From Pristiophorus japonicus (taxonomy: Eukaryota): a stretch of 64,000 nucleotides of DNA. Location of the stretch: NCBI RefSeq assembly GCF_044704955.1, contig NC_091992.1:128092001-128156000 (forward strand). Direction: 5' to 3'. Positions 6,041-29,685 of this stretch are shown one piece after another. Numbering within the stretch: position 1 is the stretch's first letter; every line of letters starts with the position of its first letter. The translations under genes and the position numbers were made by a program. Below the pieces are notes generated by a model. That model saw only the letters and a list, made by a program, of their open reading frames with translations. It was not told the origin of the DNA and did no database searches.

Positions 6041-6617
6041 TGAAATGTGATGTGTGCTGACTCTCTGCATACAATCAAGAGGGAGCGAGGCCAGTTCTTG
6101 GCTACAGCAGAGATCACATCTTATAGAAGGTAAGTGGTTTAACAGTTAATGTACACATGGTAAACACCATCTCCTGGACTAGTTTTGATCGACTGAGGGG
6201 TTTGGAGATACATTTTCTAAAGTTTTTTTCCCCTTATTGGCTGTTTTTTTGGGGGTTTTTGCCTCTCCTAGTAGATGCCCTAGCTACTGGGGGTAAGAAG
6301 TGTCTCGTCATGATGCTCCAGCCAATATGAGTGTGGGGCAGAGTTGATGGACTAGCTGTGTTTTTCATACGTGGTACATCAGCCCACTAGGAGAGGCAAA
6401 AACCCCCCAAAAAACAGCCAATAAGGGGAAAAAAACTTTAGAAAATGTATCTCCAAACCCCTCAGTCGATCAAAACTAGTCCAGGAGATGGTGTTTACCA
6501 TGTGTACATTAACTGTTAAACCACTTACCTTCTATAAGATGTGATCTCTGCTGTAGCCAAGAACTGGCCTCGCTCCCTCTTGATTGTATGCAGAGAGTCA
6601 GCACACATCACATTTCA
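6041..6617. repeat. Near-perfect 232-bp inverted repeat (arms 6041-6272 and 6386-6617, spacer about 113 bp)
   Basis: The right arm is the reverse complement of the left arm. I saw one mismatch, in the T7G5 versus C6A6 run. Confidence 0.95.
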
Positions 6618-19659: not shown

Positions 19660-20870
19660 AACATAAGAACATAAGAAATAGGAGCAGGAGCAGGCCATAC
19701 GGCCCCTCAAGCCTGCTCCACCATTTAATACGATCATGGCTGATCTGATCATGGACTCAGCTCCACTTCCCTGCCCACTCCCCATAACCCCTATCCCCTT
19801 ATTGGTTAAGAAACTGTCAATCTCTGTCCTAAATTTATTCAATGACCCAGCTTCCACAGCTCTCTGAGGCAGCAAATTCCACAGATTTACAACCCTCTGA
19901 GAGAAGAAATTCCTCCTCATCTCAGTTTTAAATGGGCGGCCCCTTATTCTAAGATCATGCCCGCTAGTTCCAGTCTCCCCCATCAGTGGAAACATCCTCC
20001 CTGCATCCACCTTGTCAAGCCCCCTCATAATCTTATACGTTTTGCTAAGATCACCTCTCATTCTTCTGAATTCCAATGAGTAGAGGCCCAACCTCCTCAA
20101 CCTTTCCTCATAAGTCAACCCCTTCATCTCCAGAATCAACCTAGTGAACCTTCTCTGAACTTCCTCCAAAGCAAGTAGATCCTTTCGTAAATATGGAAAC
20201 CAAAACTGTACGCAGTATTCCAGGTGCGGCCTCGCCAATACCCTGTATAACTGTAGCAAGACTTCCCTGCTTTTATTCTCCATCCCCTTTGCAATAAAGG
20301 CCAAGATTCCATTGGCCTTCCTGATCACTTGCTATACCTACATACTAACCTCTTGTGTTTCATGCACAAGTACCCCCAGGTCCCGTTGTACTGCAGTACT
20401 TTGCAATTTTTCTCCATTTAAATAATAACTTGCTACTTGATTTTTTTCTGCCAAAGTGCATGACCTCACACTTTCCAACATTATACTTCATCTGCCAAAT
20501 TTTTGCCCACTTAGCCTGTCTATGCCCTTTTGCAGATTTTTTGGGTCCTCCTCACACATTGCTTTTCCTCCCATCTTTGTAGCATCAGCAAACTTGGCTA
20601 CGTTACACTCCAAGTCGTTAATATAGATTGTAAATAGTTGGGGTCCCAGCGCTGATCCCTGTGGCACCTCACTAGTTACTGATTGCCAACCTGAGAATGA
20701 ACCATTTACCCCGACTCTCTGTTTTCTGTTGGTTAGCCAATCCTCTATCCATGCTAATATATTACCCCCAACCCCGTGAACTTTTATCTTGTGCAGTAAC
20801 CTTTTATGTGGCACCTTGTCAAATGCCCTCTGGAAGTCCAAATACATTACATCCACTGGTTGCTCTTTAC
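19660..20870 (-). mobile_element. CR1 LINE 3' portion
   Basis: ORFs 20488..20856 and 19657..20328 (RPHLEYCVQFW, VQRRFTR, FFSQRVVNLWN); (ACATAAGA)n tail. Confidence 0.93.
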
Positions 20871-21166
20871 CCTGGCATCACGGAGACATGGCTCCAGGGT
20901 GACCAAGGCTGGGAATTCAACATCCAGGGGTATTCAACATTTAGGAAGGATAGACAGAAAGGAAAAGGAGGTGGGATAGCGTTGATGGTTAAAGAGGAAA
21001 TTAACGCAATAGTAAGGAGGGACATTAGCTTGGATGATGTGGAATCTGTATGTGTGGAGCTGCGGAATACCAAAGGGCAGAAAACACTACTGGGAGTTGT
21101 GTACAGACCACCAAACAGTAGTAGTGAGGTTGGGGACAGTATCAAACAAGAAATTAGGGATGCGTG
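20871..21166 (+). mobile_element. CR1 endonuclease fragment, 5' part of the copy split by the ERV
   Basis: GITETWLQG..FRKDR..GGG..GVVYRPPNS..EIRDAC; continues at 27219. Confidence 0.9.
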
Positions 21167-21846
21167 TGTTAGCGTTAGTGTTTTCTTAGAAGAATCACTC
21201 AACACTCAGGGTCGGTTCCAATGCTGAAGCAGCTTTTATTACGCTCAGCGGGAAGGAAAAACTCAGGACCGTATCCAGGTTTCTCTTCACAGAACAAAGG
21301 TTTACATGTACCTTTATATGTTTCACAACAGTTACAAAACAGTTTACTACAGTTACACAGCCCATCACGGCTGGACACAAGCCAATCACAACGATTATAG
21401 ATTACATATAGGTTCTTTTAACCCAATAGAATTCTCCTAGTATCCAGGGAACCATATGTTCGGTTATTGTCAGCTTGGGCTGATCGATGACTTTATAGGT
21501 TCTCTCCCTAGTTCTTTCATCTGGGAGAAATAATTGGTTTATAGCCTTGTTTACAGCAAATGGCTTCCCTCTTATCTTTCTTCCTGGGGAATTAATTGGT
21601 TTATGACCTTGCTCACAGGAGATGGTTTCCTTCTTATCTCTGTCTTCCCAGGCATTCCTACAGTGGGCCTCACAGGGTTATTGCTCGGTCAGTGAACGTT
21701 CAACAGTTCACAGCTTGACTACCTGGTTTCCCATCATGCCTGGGCAGCCATTTTATGTGTGTGTCCATTTAAGCTTATGTGAGTTTTAAATATCCAGCAG
21801 GTGCCTAATGCCTAAGTCTATATATATCTTTCTACTCTCTACAACA
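21167..21846 (-). mobile_element. ERV 3' LTR (680 bp)
   Basis: Minus strand reads TGTTGTAGAG...CGCTAACA. TATAAA near 21313-21318, AATAAA near 21235-21240, CCAAT near 21382, and two imperfect ~62-bp U3 repeats with CCAAT and AGATAAG motifs (about 21525-21650). Confidence 0.95.
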
Positions 21847-21862
21847 ATTCCCCCTTTCGGTA
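21847..21862 (-). other. ERV polypurine tract
   Basis: Minus strand GAAAGGGGGAAT immediately precedes the 3' LTR. Confidence 0.85.
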
Positions 21863-21983
21863 AAGGGACTAGTCCTAGTCCCCTTTTAACCAAAATACTG
21901 CCTTTATCTGATATTTGTGCACGGCCCGGTATTCCTTGCCTCAACGTGCTGGCCAGTCACGCGGTTTCAGGAGTTCCGGTTGC

Positions 21984-23997
21984 TTAAATCAAATTAACAA
22001 AGGCTAGCTCCTCCCGTCCCCTTATCAAACAGGCTTGTTTAATATCCAGGGAACGGTGATTAGTCCGTTTCCGCCATTTGTGGCGCCTGCATACCTGGCA
22101 GGCCATCACGCCCCAGGTTATTGCTAAGATTAATTGTATACCGACCAGTGTGTGTGAAATAATTCGGATCCATGGGTGGATGTTCACATTTATTCCCCAG
22201 TCCCAGACCTTTCTCCACCAACTCTGACTTTGTAAGTCTACCTCGGTATCTTCTTCCAGTTCTTTGATTTTAGTTTGTAGCTGGTGATAGATTTTTACAG
22301 ATTGCCCCACTCTGAGCCTTAACTCCCGTAATACCTCGGTTAGATGTGGGATAGGGACCTGCTCTGGCTCGTCATAATCCTGTAAATGATCATGGAGCTG
22401 ATTGGTTACCTCGATAACTTCGGACTTCCGGCGCCTAACCTGGGTGATATGCGCTTGCCCGATCGCGACAGGTCGTAGTGGTGTAAAGCAAAAGTTTGGC
22501 TGCGGTATAGGGCACTGCAGGTCATTATACTGGTATGAACGCTCTGTGGTAGAGACGCAGTATCTTCCCCTCCCTCCGTAGCCTGCCCTCGCGAAGTGCA
22601 TGTGTGCGGGCACTATTTCTAGTACACACCCGTTGGTTCGGTTAAACCCGCACTCGTCTAGTTCACCTCGGCCCACCGGGTGAGGGCATACTGTGATTTC
22701 CCCCTTTTGCTTGCAATCTGCTAGGGAAATCCCAGTAAGTATGTTGTTTCGACGAACGGCAGAGGTGGTGGTTAGGTAGTAGCGTATGGAGACATTTTCC
22801 CGTATTACTCCGATATTCTCTCGTTGGTATAGGGGGAACGGCCCTGAGTCCGGCGTGACTATAGGGATCATCAGGACTGTCCCTATCCCGGTAGTCCTAC
22901 CCATCTGGCAATCTGGAATTGCTGGGTATACTCTGGTCAGTCCCTTCAGAGTACAATTATCCAGTGTCCCCCTTTGGTTAGCCAACTGAGCTAAATCTTC
23001 CTGTTCTCTATCAATGAGGTGATTGATGGTTCTGGCGTGAGCTTCCAGAACTGAGATGCCATCCAGCTGGATTTTGGCACCCTCCTTTCCTAGGTTGGCT
23101 TGGTCTTCCTGGTTTTGCTCCACCCTCTCCAATAACCCCTTCATCACCCCTCTAAGCTGTTCCACCCTCTCATTTAATTCTTGTATGTCTATCGAGTTCA
23201 CTACGGAGGTCTCTGTATTGAAAACGGTAGCAACATCATTAACTATTTCCCTCTTCATCCTGGGGGCTAACCCCTGTCCCCGGAACCTACTGGCACCCAT
23301 TGCATCGGCAGCCTGCTGCATTACAACTTTACTTAATACATTGTACATCTTCCTTGACTGTTCTGTACAGTATTCCGGCATCTGGATGCCTGAAATATTG
23401 ATCAGAACAGGCACAATTTCATGTCTAACATTATCATACAACAGTTCCCCCTCGCTGTACATTACAATCCCATTCTCTGGTCCCTTCGTAGTTATGGGGC
23501 AAGGCAGTTCCTCGGGCAATGTAGTGATTCTTATGGGGCGCGGTGTCGGAGGGGGTGAGAAACATACATACAATGATATTGCAGCCGCCCCCACCTCCTC
23601 GTAATACCCACACAGCCCCATTCCCTTCTTGCGGATGACTGATTGCTGGGATTGTCCCGGAGGCGCACAAATTATGCCGAAAGTACATTCATCAGGCCCT
23701 TTGACATCCCTCCGTTTAATGCATCTGCTCCTTATACCCGTGGAGCACTGTACACATACTCTTATTCTTATTAGGATTCTTATTAGGATTCACTTGTAAC
23801 CATGCATTAAAATAAGTCCTGTCCTTGCTCCAGTCCTTGGCTGCTGGAATGCACATTCCGTCCGTTAAATTAAACAAGACTCCATAGTTCATGTAGTTGT
23901 TTATTTCCAGCGTGCTCTGCTGTCCGTCGGTGTTGCCCAGGGTACGTGCATGTCGCAGGGCTATCCATATTACGAGTAGCGCCGTTCGTATTCCCAT
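21984..23997 (-). CDS. env: ERV envelope / class I fusion glycoprotein (about 670 aa when one frameshift near 23760-23790 is repaired)
   Basis: Signal peptide MGIRTALLVIWIALRHART from ATG 23997; the second frame is open from about 23790 to 21984. Furin site RMKR (23250-23261), HR1 coiled coil, Cys-rich domain, HR2, Trp-rich SWWRKVWDWG, TM IISHTLVGIQLILAITWGVMAC and a basic tail. Confidence 0.88.
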
Positions 23998-24085
23998 TCC
24001 GGTAAGTATTATCTGTAATTTTAAACAGACGGCCTGGTCGTCACCAGGGGTTAAGTTTTTTTGCTCTACGAGTGTCCCTGTCACC

Positions 24086-24105
24086 CTGCAAAATCAGAAG
24101 CACAA
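24086..24105 (-). promoter_or_regulatory. env splice acceptor
   Basis: Minus strand TTGTGCTTCTGATTTTGCAG|G, about 90 nt upstream of the env ATG. Confidence 0.75.
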
Positions 24106-24107
24106 GG

Positions 24108-24218
24108 TTATAATCGAACCATTTCGAGCTGAATCTGTAGGGCGTGCGCCCGTGTCTTTACCCACTTAAATATTACCCAAACTCCTATGACCAAGGCCAA
24201 AGCTATTCCTCCAAACAT
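24108..24218 (-). CDS. 36-aa single-pass membrane micro-ORF upstream of env
   Basis: Hand translation MFGGIALALVIGVWVIFKWVKTRAHALQIQLEMVRL*; shorter than any ORF in the supplied track. Confidence 0.45.
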   Translation of the reverse strand: MFGGIALALVIGVWVIFKWVKTRAHALQIQLEMVRL

Positions 24219-24329
24219 CGCTGTCTGCTTTACCGTTAGGTTGGGTTTGTGGACTACACCTACCCACCGTGGGGTACATTGGCTCTATTGCCAGAGGTGA
24301 CGGTGCTATGGCTGCGCACTGCACTATCC

Positions 24330-25984
24330 GTCTAGTCCCGTTATCTCTTCCAGCCTGTTTATCTTAGCTTTTAACTCTTCAATTTGTTTTATTGAATATC
24401 TATTTCTTTATTGTATCAGGCAAGTATTATTACATAAGCTAGTTCTGTTTTTATTTTTGTTTCCTCTGTTAGGTGAGTCTTTTTTTTCCTATTAAGAAAT
24501 CCAAATTAATAATGTTCAGTATAAAACGGCTGTCAATGGAAAGGGTTAACTCCTTTCCAGGTTTGTAAGAAGACCTGATGTCATTACGTGACTTCACGTA
24601 ATCATCTGAAAAAAAGTCTTTGTGCCTTCAAAACTGGCTTCGAAATTAGGAATCCGTTAAAAACAGCATAAATCATTAGAGTAAACTCCAATGTTTTCTT
24701 AACTTCTAATTCAAGTACTTGCCAAAGAAATTTTTTTTTTTTTTTATTGTTTTAAAACAAGACCACACATACAATAGCAATTTTGTTTACTGAAATTCAA
24801 TTCTGTTTTTTTTTATTTCTCTCTTTCTCCTCGTTATCTTCAAAACCCTCCTGCTTGTTTAGACTGTTCGGGACTTTTTTGATAAACACTGTCCATTTTG
24901 GAAATCTTTTCAAACTGCATTGAAACTTTTGAAAATTCGAATCCATGTAGAGTGTTTTTTACTTATTATTTTTTTTTTCTCTTCTAATTAAACCAATATC
25001 TTTTTCACAGCAAACATCAACTAGTATTTAGTAAGTTATGTCTTTTTCCATTTAGTCCGTTACATCTTTTTTTTTTCTTTCTTCAAATTAGGTTTTGTAT
25101 TTTACACGGAGGGTTCGTAACTCCATAAAGTTGTTAATTTAAAATCATGCTCCAGTTTCAAAGTCGTTACTAAAGCTTGCTGTTTTTTAACATTTTCCAA
25201 AAGTTCCTTTTACACCTTCGCAGATAGCTCGCCACTTGCCCAGGAGTTTGACCTGATCAGATTTAATTTAATCTTTTTCTTTTTTTTTTTAAATCCACCT
25301 CAGTATTTCCTGTGCCTTCTCTGAATATCTCAAAATCCCAATTCAAACTTTGTAATTTCAATCTTTATTTAAAACTTTTTTTTTTTAGAAGCTCTTTTTT
25401 TTTAAAGCATTCTTTATCTCATTCCGAGACTAAATTTATGTCTTTCAACCCAATCAATCATTGCATGTTTTCTTTCGGCAAGTAAGTGAGCATGTCAAAT
25501 AAATATTTTGCTCAACAAACCTATTCTTTATTTGTTTATTTTCCTAGCTCCGTAACTTATCATCCGAATAAATCCACACCTGCGTTTCTAACTTAAATGT
25601 CTTAAAACTTCCCACATACAGGACAACATTACAAAGGGTTTAAAAAAAGACTTTCACTCTGTTTCTAAAATAAACAGACACTTGCATTCCTCTTCCAACC
25701 AGGCTTTCGGAACATGAAAACATAAAAAAATCACACAGACACTTCTCACTCAACGATCAGACATTTACAACAGTCTCTCTTCTTGTTTTGGCCGTCTCTA
25801 TTTTTGGATCCATGACCTTTCAGGGAATTCGTAGTTTTATCTAAATAATTCCTCACATAACTAATTCCTGAGGATTCCACCCTGCTTTAATCATTTTTTC
25901 AATTAGCTTCTTTTGTTTTTCCGCCAGGTGGCGGGTAAGCGACCCTTCTGGTCCCCACTCGAGTTTACTTGTTTTCATGGCCAT
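24330..25984 (-). pseudogene. Decayed A-rich gag/accessory region of the ERV
   Basis: Short protein-like remnants (MAMKTSKLEWGPEGSLTRHLAEKQKKLIEKMIKAGWNPQELVM*; KELLENVKKQQALVTTLKLEHD; IKQIEELKAKINRLEEITGLDG*) are broken by many poly-A runs. No RT or integrase motifs seen. Confidence 0.55.
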
Positions 25985-26477
25985 TCCTGGGTAGGGCTAG
26001 TACCGTTAGGAATCTACTCTCAGAGGTCCACTTTCTTTCTAGCGCGACTTGTAGTAAACTGTCTCTTGGCTACTGTCAGGTCACAAGTTCTGCTGTTACA
26101 CAAACTTATACAATTCTTAAAAACGCGTTTAAGCAATTCCCGCAGTGCTCTACGTATCCTTAACGACTACCTACCACCGCTCAGCCCGTTGGTCCGACCC
26201 TGTTCACAGGTTTGGATTCCGTTAGCCGCTGTACACCGCTTGGTTCTACCCCGGGGTATTTCAAATTACACTACTGGGTCCGGAAGATGTCTCTCGGTAT
26301 CACGATCCCACGGTCTAAGTGTGTTCCCTACGCCTACTTGGTTCCTGGCCATCACGTGGGACAAAAGTCCTCTTAATTCAGGCTCAGGCTAGGCGTTTGA
26401 GATATTAGACCGTCTCCTCATGTCGATCAACCAGCTTCCACCTTCCGCACCCTTTATACTTAAAAATTGTTTTTTAT

Positions 26478-26486
26478 ACTCACCCG
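26478..26486 (-). promoter_or_regulatory. ERV major splice donor
   Basis: Minus strand CGG|GTGAGT, about 40 nt downstream of the PBS. Confidence 0.78.
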
Positions 26487-26520
26487 GGTTTTTTCCAAGG
26501 GCGTCCAGCGACTCCGGGAA

Positions 26521-26538
26521 ATCCCGTCGACTACGCCA
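26521..26538 (-). other. Primer-binding site complementary to tRNA-Ser
   Basis: TGGCGTAGTCGACGGGAT, 1 nt after the 5' LTR. The complement of the vertebrate tRNA-Ser 3' end is TGGCGTAGTCGGCAGGAT (16/18 match). Confidence 0.85.
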
Positions 26539-26539
26539 T

Positions 26540-27218
26540 TGTTAGCGTTAGTGTTTTCTTAGAAGAATCACTCAACACTCAGAGTCGGTTCCAATGCTGA
26601 AGCAGCTTTTATTACGCTCAGCGGGAAGGAAAAACTCAGGACCGTATCCAGGTTTCTCTTCACAGAACAAAGGTTTACATGTACCTTTATATGTTTCACA
26701 ACAGTTACAAAACAGTTTACTACAGTTACACAGCCCATCACGGCTGGACACAAGCCAATCACAACGATTATAGATTACATATAGGTTCTTTTAACCCAAT
26801 AGAATTCTCCTAGTATCCAGGGAACCATATGTTCGGTTATTGTCAGCTTGGGCTGATCGATGACTTTATAGGTTCTCTCCCTAGTTCTTTCATCTGGGAG
26901 AAATAATTGGTTTATAGCCTTGTTTACAGCAAATGGCTTCCCTCTTATCTTTCTTCCTGGGGAATTAATTGGTTTATGACCTTGCTCACAGGAGATGGTT
27001 TCCTTCTTATCTCTGTCTTCCCAGGCATTCCTACAGTGGGCCTCACAGGGTTATTGCTCGGTCAGTGAACGTTCAACAGTTCACAGCTTGACTACCTGGT
27101 TTCCCATCATGCCTGGGCAGCCATTTTATGTGTGTGTCCATTTAAGCTTATGTGAGTTTTAAATATCCAGCAGGTGCTAATGCCTAAGTCTATATATATC
27201 TTTCTACTCTCTACAACA
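26540..27218 (-). mobile_element. ERV 5' LTR (679 bp)
   Basis: Identical to 21167-21846 except one substitution (CAGGGTC/CAGAGTC) and one 1-bp indel (GTGCCTAA/GTGCTAA), by visual comparison. Confidence 0.95.
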
Positions 27219-29685
27219 CGTGCAATAAAGGTACAGCAGTTATCATGGGAGACTTTAATCTACATATAGATTGGGCTAACCAAACTGGTAGCAATACAGT
27301 GGAGGAGGATTTCCTGGAGTGTATTAGGGATGGTTTTCTAGACCAATATGTCGAGGAACCAACTAGAGGGCTGGCCATCTTAGACTGGGTGATGTGTAAT
27401 GAGAAAGGACTAATTAGCAATCTTGTTGTGCAAGGTGCCTTGGAGAAGAGTGACCATAATATGGTAGAATTCTTTATTAAGATGGAGAGGGACACAGTTA
27501 ATTCAGAGACTAGGATCCTAAACTTAAGGAGAGTTAACTTCGATGGTATGAGACGTGAATTGGCTAGAATAGACTGGCAAATGATACTTAAAGGGTTGAT
27601 GGTGGATAGGCAATGGCAAACATTTGAAGATCACATGGATGAACTTCAACAATACCTGTCTGGAGTAAAAAATAAAACGGGGAAGGTGGCTCAACCGTAG
27701 CTAAGAAGGGAAATTAAGGATAGTGTTAAATCCAAGGAAGAGACATATAAATTGGCCAGAAAAAGCAGCAAGCCTGAGGACTGGGAGAAATTTAGAATTC
27801 AGCAGAGGAGGACAAAGGATTTAATTAGGAGAGGGAAAATAGAGCATGAGAGGAAGTTGCCAGGAACATAAAAACTGACTGCAAAAGCTTCTATAGATAT
27901 GTGAAGAGAAAAAGATTAGTGAAGACAAACGTAGGCCCCTCGCAGTCAGATTTAGGTGAATTTATAATGCGGAACAAAGAAATGGCAGACCAGTTGAACA
28001 AATACTTTGGTTCTGTCTTCACGAAGGAAGACCCGAATAACCTTCCGGAAATACTTAGGGACCGAGGATCTAGTGGGAAGGAGGAACTGAAGGAAATCCT
28101 TATTAGGCGGGAAATTGTGTTAGGGAAATTGATGGGATTGAAGCCCGATAAATCCCCAGGGCCTGATAATTTGCATCCCAAAGTACTTAAGGAAGTGGCC
28201 CTAGAAATAGTGGATACATTGGTGATCATTTTCCAACAGTCTATCGACTCTAGATCAGTTCCTATGGACTGGAGGGTAGCTAATGTAACACCTTTTTTTT
28301 AAAAGGGAGGGAGAGAAAAAACGGGTAATTATCGACCGGTTAGCCCGACATCAGTAGTGGGGAAAATGTCGGAATCAATTATTAACGATGAAATAGCAGC
28401 GCATTTGGAAAGCAGTGACAGGATCGGTCCAAGTCAGCTTGACAAATCTTCTGGAATTTTTTGAGGATGTAACTAGTAGAGTGGACAAGGGAGAACCAGT
28501 GGATGTGGTGTATATGGACTTTCGAACGGCTTTTGACAAGGTCCCACACAAGAGATTGGTGTGCAAAATTAAAGCACATGGTATTGGGGTAATGTACTGA
28601 CATGGATAGAGAACTCGTTGGCAGACAGGAAGCAGAGTCGGGATAAATGGGTCCTTTTCAGAATGGCAGGCAGTGACTAGTGGGGTGCTGCAGGGCTCAG
28701 TGCTGGGACCCCAGCTATTTACAATATACATTAATGATTTAGATGAAGGAATTGAGTCTAATATCTCCAAGTTTGCAGATGACACTAAGCTGGGTGGAGG
28801 TGTGAGCTGTGAGGAGAACGCTAAGAGGCTGCAGGTGACTTGGGCAGGTTAGGTGAGTGGGCAGCTGCATGGCAGATGCAGTATAATGTGGATAAATGTG
28901 AGATTATCCACTTTGGTGGCAAAAACAGGAAGGCAGAATATTATCTGAATGGCGACAGATTAGGAAAAGGGGAGGTGCAACGAGACCTGGGTGTCATGGT
29001 ACATCAGTCATTGAAAGTTGGCATGCAGGTACAGCAGTGGTGAAGAAGGCAAATGGTATGTTGGCCTTCATAGCTAGGGGATTTGAGTATAGGAGCAGGG
29101 AGGTCTTACTGCAGTTGTACAAGGTCTTGGTGAGGCCTCACCTGGAATATTGTGTTCGGTTTTGTTCTCCTAATGTGAGGAAGGACGTTCTTACTATTGA
29201 GGGAGTGCAGCGAAGGTTCACCAGACTGATTCCCGGGATGGCAGGACTGACATAAGAGGAGAGACTGGATCGACTGGGCCTGTATTCATTGGAGTTTAGA
29301 AGGATGAGAGGGGATCTCATAGAAACATAAAATTCTGATGGGACTGGACAGGTTAGATGCAGGAAGAATGTTCCCGATGTTGGGAAAGTCCAGAACCAGA
29401 GGACACAGTCTAAGGATAAGGGGTAAGCCATTTAGGACTGCGATGAGGAGAAACTTCTTCACTCAGAGAGTTGTTAACCTGTGGAATTCCCTACTGCCGT
29501 GAGTTGTTCACTGGATATATTCAAGAGGGAGTTAGATATGGCCCTTACGGCTAAAGGAATCAAGGGGTATGGAGAGAAAGCAGGAAAGGGGTACTGAGGT
29601 GAATGATCAGCCATGATCTTATTGAATGGTGGTGCAGGCTCGAAGGGCCGAATGGCCTACTCCTGCACCTATTTTCTATGTTTCT
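27219..29685 (+). mobile_element. CR1 LINE ORF2 and tail, 3' part of the copy split by the ERV
   Basis: MGDFNLHIDW.., KSPGPD, FADDTKL and RPHLEYC motifs; TTCTATGTTTCTAT tail. Confidence 0.93.

What the first reader, a model, noticed from the sequence alone, without database searches (positions are those of the whole stretch)
21167..27218. Very young env-only provirus: candidate satellite or bipartite retrovirus in a cartilaginous fish
Seen: the LTRs differ at only about 2 of 680 positions, and the TSD, tRNA-Ser PBS, PPT and both splice sites are intact, so integration was recent. There is no RT, protease or integrase, and the gag region is shredded by poly-A runs, while env is open for about 590 codons. 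Established: LTRs are identical at integration. Inference: the gag-pol loss and decay happened before this insertion, over rounds of replication in trans, while env was preserved. Non-autonomous ERVs usually lose env first. Keeping env and dropping gag-pol suggests a complementation pair in which this element supplies the envelope and a separate, possibly env-less, helper supplies Gag-Pol.
Basis: partly seen in the sequence, partly recalled or inferred. Interest (0 to 1): 0.9.

Follow-up and report, generated by a model that had tools for sequence, protein, structure and literature searches.

The report
Defective shark provirus with dead envelope
This is one recent copy of a large family of defective shark retroviral elements whose envelope gene is broken, and which likely spread by borrowing the proteins of complete gag-pol-env relatives in the same genome, a helper-and-parasite pattern already described in cattle and koalas.

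Summary
The provirus is real: minus strand, LTRs differing at 2 of 680 sites, 4-bp TSD, PBS, PPT, splice sites, no pol. Env is not preserved: a frameshift cuts the signal-peptide ORF (93 aa) from the 601-codon frame, and 41 ectodomain codons are missing. In a systematic sample, 32 of 33 family copies lack an open env. The helper is not env-less: the genome holds 9.4-kb gag-pol-env proviruses with the same LTR, PBS and env, some with all three frames open. The 'shredded gag' is 40 gag codons plus a 1.64-kb AT-rich cassette with no detectable likeness to helper gag/pol. A cassette marker has 1,434 exact hits against 120 for a pol marker. Trees reject a single origin for the env and LTR of the env-only copies; low env dN/dS sits mainly in variants shared with full-length copies. 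So env likely hitchhikes and is refreshed by recombination. This matches bovine ERVK D-type elements and koala recKoRV: a new member of a known kind. Side results: helper Env folds like paramyxovirus F; the cassette spans two helper generations.

The parts
26540..27218 (-). 5' LTR (679 bp)
   Evidence: 93-96% identical to LTRs of young full-length proviruses, 74-87% to older ones
26520..26538 (-). Primer-binding site (tRNA-Ser-like; label recalled)
   Evidence: same PBS in full-length copies, two variants alternate among copies; matching tRNA gene not found
26475..26484 (-). Splice donor motif (GT at 26483)
   Evidence: same motif in 17 of 19 full-length copies; use not shown
25862..25984 (-). 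First ~40 codons of gag (remnant)
   Evidence: 95% amino-acid identity over 44 residues to gag frame of a full-length copy
24218..25861 (-). 1,644-bp AT-rich non-coding cassette replacing gag-pol; origin unknown
   Evidence: no similarity to helper gag/pol, Pfam, Rfam or 184 held proteins; 74-82% identical to cassette of older env-only lineage; 22-mer marker 1,434 exact hits
24108..24217 (-). 3' half of the helper's 66-aa membrane-protein ORF that lies between pol and env
   Evidence: ORF open in 19 of 19 full-length copies
24085..24104 (-). env splice acceptor motif (AG ends 24086)
   Evidence: use not shown
23716..23997 (-). env start: signal peptide and N-terminus, running out of frame near 23770-23790 and stopping after 93 aa
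21984..23789 (-). Remainder of env (601-codon frame, no signal peptide, 41-codon in-frame deletion at ~22995)
   Evidence: loose ends at 22995-22996 in all four runs laid
21848..21858 (-). Polypurine tract
21167..21846 (-). 3' LTR (680 bp)
21163..21166 (+). Target-site duplication, left copy (right copy 27219-27222)
20676..21162 (+). Host LINE endonuclease frame interrupted by the insertion (continues from 27223)
   Evidence: Exo_endo_phos families on both flanks, E 0.008 and 1e-5

Best explanation
This is a non-autonomous endogenous retrovirus with a broken env and no pol, likely copied and integrated by the proteins of full-length gag-pol-env relatives in the same genome, with env likely carried as a passenger that is renewed by recombination. 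SHOWN: cis signals intact; gag-pol replaced by an AT-rich cassette; env broken here and in nearly all sampled copies; full-length relatives with the same LTR, PBS, leader and env exist, some with identical LTRs and open frames; env and LTR of env-only copies are interleaved with full-length copies in trees; a third class joins part of the cassette to pol. INFERRED: the defective RNA is packaged, reverse-transcribed and integrated by helper Gag-Pol; co-packaging with helper RNA allows template switching, which swaps in current LTR and env segments while the cassette is kept; env persists because it lies between the cassette and the PPT/LTR, not because its protein is needed.
For: Env broken: 30 of 30 closest copies give a 93-aa or shorter ORF from the signal ATG; 0 of 20 cassette-picked copies intact, with further lesions shared between copies; 32 of 33 systematic copies lack an open env. 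Helper with env: (8 of 20 stretches fetched, at 6 distinct target sites, have gag, pol and env all open; LTR pairs 100% identical in 5 of them, at 3 distinct sites). Copy excess: 1,434 cassette-marker hits against 120 pol-marker hits. Recombination: AU test rejects one clade for env-only copies in 3' env (p 0.0005) and LTR (p 0.00003), and for the young ones alone in 3' env (p 0.0002) (27 of 53 rows used). This copy's leader is nearest older full-length copies (95.4%) while its 3' env is nearest young ones (97.6%). 8 of 8 fetched copies of a third class join cassette, protease-less pol and broken env. dN/dS: variants also present in full-length copies 0.18-0.44; private variants 0.84, 0.95, 1.16 (not different from neutral).
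Against: Private variants shared among young env-only copies have dN/dS 0.55 (37 N, 25 S; p 0.03 against neutral); this may be import from helper lineages I did not sample (19 full-length copies held) but could be residual selection. 1 of 33 systematic copies, and one more found by a search for open frames, have an open ~700-codon env. Groups for the AU tests were defined by structure but I had seen FastTree drawings first. Gene conversion between integrated copies could also mix segments. No expression or packaging data.
Confidence: 0.85

Rival explanations
1. Bipartite complementation: env-only elements supply the envelope to an env-less Gag-Pol helper.
For: Full-length env region and both splice motifs are kept in the young lineage; overall shared-variant dN/dS is 0.2-0.3; rare env-only copies have an open env.
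Against: Env broken in this copy and 32 of 33 sampled; older lineage lost the acceptor motif in 16 of 17 and the signal start; all 15 pol-picked stretches fetched carry env sequence (14 along its length, 1 truncated copy up to codon 202); low dN/dS traces to helper-shared variants.
Confidence: 0.03
2. The spliced RNA makes a short secreted Env fragment (93 aa) or a signal-less Env that interferes with helper infection, so the env region is kept for a decoy or restriction role.
For: Splice motifs, first ATG and signal peptide are intact; 28 of 30 closest copies keep the 93-aa ORF; the frameshift is shared by 23 of 33 sampled copies.
Against: These copies are young, so conservation is expected; the older lineage lost this start; the last ~20 residues are off-frame; no expression evidence was obtained.
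Confidence: 0.06
3. Mixing of segments arose mostly by gene conversion or ectopic recombination between integrated copies rather than by co-packaging.
For: Some copies have discordant LTR pairs or inverted or missing 5' LTRs.
Against: Recombinant classes occur at many loci with identical or near-identical LTR pairs and their own target-site duplications, which needs new integration after the exchange.
Confidence: 0.06

Closest known systems
Bovine ERVK[2-1-LTR] C/D pair (PMC10924933; passages read)
   Same: Competent ~10-kb and defective ~6.8-kb forms; central segment swapped for unrelated sequence; flanks keep parts of gag and env; defective form outnumbers competent form; C-D recombination and a recombinant class.
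   Different: That family is ERVK; here the helper pol is MLV-like with an F-like Env, the whole env length and splice motifs are kept, and the cassette spans at least two helper generations.
Koala recKoRV (PMC6112702; passages read)
   Same: Helper LTR and gag leader, foreign middle, helper env end and LTR; relies on helper integrase.
   Different: recKoRV middle comes from a known element (PhER) and keeps only the end of env; here the cassette's source was not found.
Mouse VL30 (PMC4859993; passages read) and ETn/MusD (as cited)
   Same: Non-coding LTR elements mobilised in trans.
   Different: VL30 has no env; ETn keeps gag and pol flanks.
Epsilon-like fish and shark ERVs (CmiERV lineages II/III, PMC4422223, first 10,000 characters read; WEHV1 and WDSV)
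   Same: Helper pol scores best against MLV RT; helper Env model matches WEHV1 and WDSV Env models (E 1e-12, 3e-8); in-frame gag-stop-pol.
   Different: No RT tree with epsilon references was built; the junction codon is TGA in 18 of 18 read; a 66-aa membrane ORF precedes env.
Lokiretroviruses (PMC7947760; first 10,000 characters read)
   Same: Env related to paramyxo/pneumovirus F, with signal peptide, RxKR site, coiled coils and TM.
   Different: Pol here is far closer to MLV (405 bits) than to foamy (205) or Ty3 (204), which does not fit a lineage sister to all retroviruses; that paper's abstract lists no cartilaginous fish.

Membership tests
Non-autonomous ERV, D-type/recKoRV-like | Intact cis signals (LTRs, PBS, PPT, TSD) and no Gag-Pol capacity | tested here: met
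Non-autonomous ERV, D-type/recKoRV-like | Many copies at independent sites sharing the same defective structure | tested here: met
Non-autonomous ERV, D-type/recKoRV-like | Co-resident competent element with the same LTR and PBS | tested here: met
Non-autonomous ERV, D-type/recKoRV-like | Central segment replaced by sequence unrelated to the helper | tested here: met
Non-autonomous ERV, D-type/recKoRV-like | Swapped segment derives from an older retroelement | tested here: inconclusive
   no source found; searches return only family copies
Non-autonomous ERV, D-type/recKoRV-like | Recombination with the competent form | tested here: met
Non-autonomous ERV, D-type/recKoRV-like | Mobilisation in trans observed directly | not testable with these tools
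   needs pedigree or germline sequencing
Bipartite/complementing pair | Defective partner encodes an intact Env under purifying selection | tested here: not met
Bipartite/complementing pair | Gag-Pol partner lacks env | tested here: not met
Class I (gamma/epsilon-like) retrovirus, for the helper | PR-RT-tether-RNase H-IN order, YVDD, MLV-like pol, in-frame gag-stop-pol | tested here: met
Epsilonretrovirus, for the helper | RT groups with WDSV/WEHV in a tree | not tested
   no epsilon RT reference held; only Env fold similarity
Lokiretrovirus | F-like Env | tested here: met
Lokiretrovirus | RT sister to all sampled retroviruses | tested here: inconclusive
   score pattern argues against; no tree built

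The most novel reading that the evidence does not exclude
The AT-rich cassette is itself the selfish unit: a non-coding cis-acting drive element that gains a packaging or copying advantage, has outlived one helper generation by recombining into the LTR, leader and env of the next, and now outnumbers its helper about twelve to one: a long-lived satellite of a shark retrovirus with an F-type envelope.
Probability: 0.3. Interest if true: 0.6.

Novelty: new member of a known kind. Interest (0 to 1): 0.38.

Why it matters
It shows that the competent/defective pairing with a swapped centre, described in cattle, koala and mouse, also occurs in a cartilaginous fish, at over a thousand copies and across at least two helper generations. 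It is also a caution: a long open env frame and low dN/dS in defective copies can come from recombination with helpers and need not mean function. The family offers a natural test of the 'parasite-of-parasite' idea for ERV decline. The F-like fold of the helper Env, close to walleye epsilonretrovirus Env models, bears on where retroviral envelopes came from.

Tried and rejected
Pfam and solved-structure sequence searches with the window env: nothing; Pfam on the full-length env and P0001: nothing. Cassette as decayed gag/pol: rejected. Cassette in six frames (window) and three frames (older copy) against Pfam: nothing; Rfam: 0; 184 held proteins: 0 hits; genome searches returned only family copies. 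tRNA gene matching the PBS: 0 hits with one exact 22-base pattern, uninformative because common words may be skipped and the pattern may be wrong. Genome-wide counts of the env frame state failed because an anchor was mistyped; a systematic sample replaced them. Sequencing runs: no RNA holder listed; contigs of four runs showed no donor-acceptor joint among the joints displayed, which says nothing on splicing. Insertion polymorphism was not tested. ESM Atlas on the 66-aa ORF: no usable hit. Earlier findings of this scan: three look-ups, nothing. Literature: searches found no description of this shark family; and passage searches found no statement that epsilonretrovirus Env is F-like; the library lacks most subscription papers and I opened no supplements, where shark ERV sequences could be listed.

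Full report
Observation. The element spans 21167-27218 on the minus strand. Its LTRs (679 and 680 bp) differ by one substitution and one single-base indel; it has TG...CA ends, a 4-bp target-site duplication, a PBS at 26538 and an 11-purine PPT. It interrupts a LINE endonuclease frame. Splice donor and acceptor motifs match those of full-length relatives, and the first ATG after the acceptor is at 23997. The tRNA-Ser label is recalled; one exact search for a matching tRNA end found nothing. 'Very young' is relative: with the rate assumed in PMC4422223 (2.2e-10 per site per year) one or two differences give roughly 3-7 million years, with a wide error. The host is consistent with a shark: all 9 env homologs found are named from sharks.

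Env is broken. The 601-codon frame (21984-23789) has no signal peptide. The signal ATG opens a different frame that matches the start of a shark homolog for about 70 codons and stops after 93. A second lesion removes 41 codons of the ectodomain. All 30 closest copies share the frame break. Among 20 copies picked by similarity of the internal region, none has an intact env, and several further frameshifts and deletions are shared between copies, so decay went on during copying. In a systematic sample (every third of the first 100 listed cassette hits on contig C1; 31 fetched, 2 already held), 32 of 33 lack an open env from the signal start, 23 carry the same frameshifting insertion, 2 carry the 41-codon deletion, and 1 has an open 708-codon frame (the script's label called it broken, the ORF length shows otherwise). 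One more open env-only copy was found by a search that favours open frames.

The helper has its own env. A search with the shark homolog returned 62 scored env copies, many without stops. Of 20 fetched, 15 are 9.4-kb or near-full gag-pol-env proviruses and 5 are env-only; 8, at 6 distinct target sites, have gag, pol and env all open. Their LTRs are 93-96% identical to the window's and their own LTR pairs reach 100%, so they are contemporaries. Fifteen more stretches picked by pol all carry env sequence: 7 older full-length or truncated copies, and 8 copies of a third class. Pol has PR, RT, tether, RNase H and IN domains and scores best against MLV RT; gag has zinc knuckles and is followed in frame by TGA in 18 of 18 junctions read, of 19 copies examined.

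The middle is a foreign cassette. After about 40 gag codons, 1,644 bases (24218-25861, about 67% A+T) show no similarity to helper gag or pol, to Pfam, Rfam or 184 held proteins. Helper sequence resumes inside a 66-aa membrane ORF that lies between pol and env. The cassette is shared, at 74-82% identity, with an older env-only lineage whose LTR pairs are 93-98% identical. That lineage has lost the acceptor motif in 16 of 17 copies and the signal start, and shares its LTR type and PBS variant with older full-length copies. Exact markers give 1,434 cassette hits and 120 pol hits, controls 0 (overlapping 20-mers were present in 64 of 68 cassette-bearing and 27 of 27 pol-bearing copies held). These are lower bounds and may include duplicated contigs.

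Recombination. In trees of 27 of the 53 aligned copies, env-only copies interleave with full-length ones; one clade for them is rejected for 3' env (p 0.0005) and LTR (p 0.00003), and for young copies alone in 3' env (p 0.0002) and weakly in LTR (p 0.048). I had seen rough trees first. The window copy is a mosaic: leader 95.4% to an older full-length copy against 92.7% to a young one, 3' env 97.6% to young against 92.0% to that older one. The third class joins LTR, leader, about 1 kb of cassette, pol without protease and a broken env, with LTR pairs 99.7-100% identical in 7 of 8; 23 such matches appear among the 40.

Selection. Splitting them changes this: variants with both alleles among 19 full-length copies give 0.18 (young) and 0.23 (old); private ones give 0.84 and 0.55 (young singletons, shared) and 1.16 and 0.95 (old). 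The 0.55 differs from neutral (p 0.03) and is the main result against my reading; unsampled helpers could explain it. Shared variants of full-length copies give 0.16.

Mechanism. Shown: intact cis signals, no enzymes, broken env, competent relatives, mosaic segments, copy excess. Inferred from retroviral biology: helper Gag-Pol packages, copies and integrates the defective RNA; co-packaging allows template switching that renews LTR and env; env is a passenger. Why the cassette is kept is open: it may be inert filler or give a cis advantage.

Envelope type. An AlphaFold model of a full-length copy's Env (mean pLDDT 69, pTM 0.47) matches RSV, hPIV3 and henipavirus F (best E 4e-11, TM-scores 0.3-0.36 by query) and, among predicted viral structures, WEHV1 Env (1e-12) and WDSV Env (3e-8). 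F-like Env is known for lokiretroviruses (PMC7947760) and foamy viruses (PMC11468914, search listing and passages); modelling of epsilon SU was reported as unsuccessful in bioRxiv 10.1101/2021.11.05.467493 (passages).

Comparison and verdict. PMC10924933 (passages) describes bovine C and D elements, 15% and 85%, with trans-complementation and recombination, and notes that this pair, MusD/ETn and KoRV/recKoRV share a swapped centre with retained gag and env or pol flanks. PMC6112702 (passages) describes recKoRV. This shark family fits that kind. The bipartite-retrovirus reading is not supported. Interest 0.38; new member of a known kind.

Noticed in passing
L031-L043, L046, L049, L113-L117, L119 between pol and env (e.g. 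L034:6406-6603): A 66-aa ORF with one predicted membrane segment starts just after the pol stop and is open in 19 of 19 full-length copies; no Atlas hit. Possible accessory gene.
   Followed up: partly
gag-pol junction of full-length copies (L034 ~2858): In-frame TGA in 18 of 18 junctions read; UAG is the usual read-through codon in gamma/epsilon viruses (recalled).
   Followed up: partly
L105-L112: A second defective class: cassette part plus pol without protease plus broken env, LTR pairs up to 100% identical; 23 of 40 pol matches.
   Followed up: partly
Env of full-length copies: Predicted fold matches paramyxo/pneumovirus F and walleye epsilonretrovirus Env models; distant full-length homologs at 22-24% identity exist.
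   Followed up: partly
L034, L035, L036: The same insertion (same target duplication) occurs on three contigs: segmental duplication or assembly duplicates.
   Followed up: no
family-wide: Target duplications are 4 bp in some copies and 5 bp in others; two PBS variants alternate within young classes and a third marks the older lineage.
   Followed up: no
window 6041-6272 and 6386-6617: A 232-nt perfect inverted repeat with a 113-nt spacer: foldback element or assembly artefact.
   Followed up: no
G000:C2256, C3435, C3829, C1706, C3940: Older pol copies on small contigs carry a 56-bp tandem expansion inside pol.
   Followed up: no
window 1-64000: The window is dense in LINE fragments and short repeats at 60-95% identity.
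   Followed up: no
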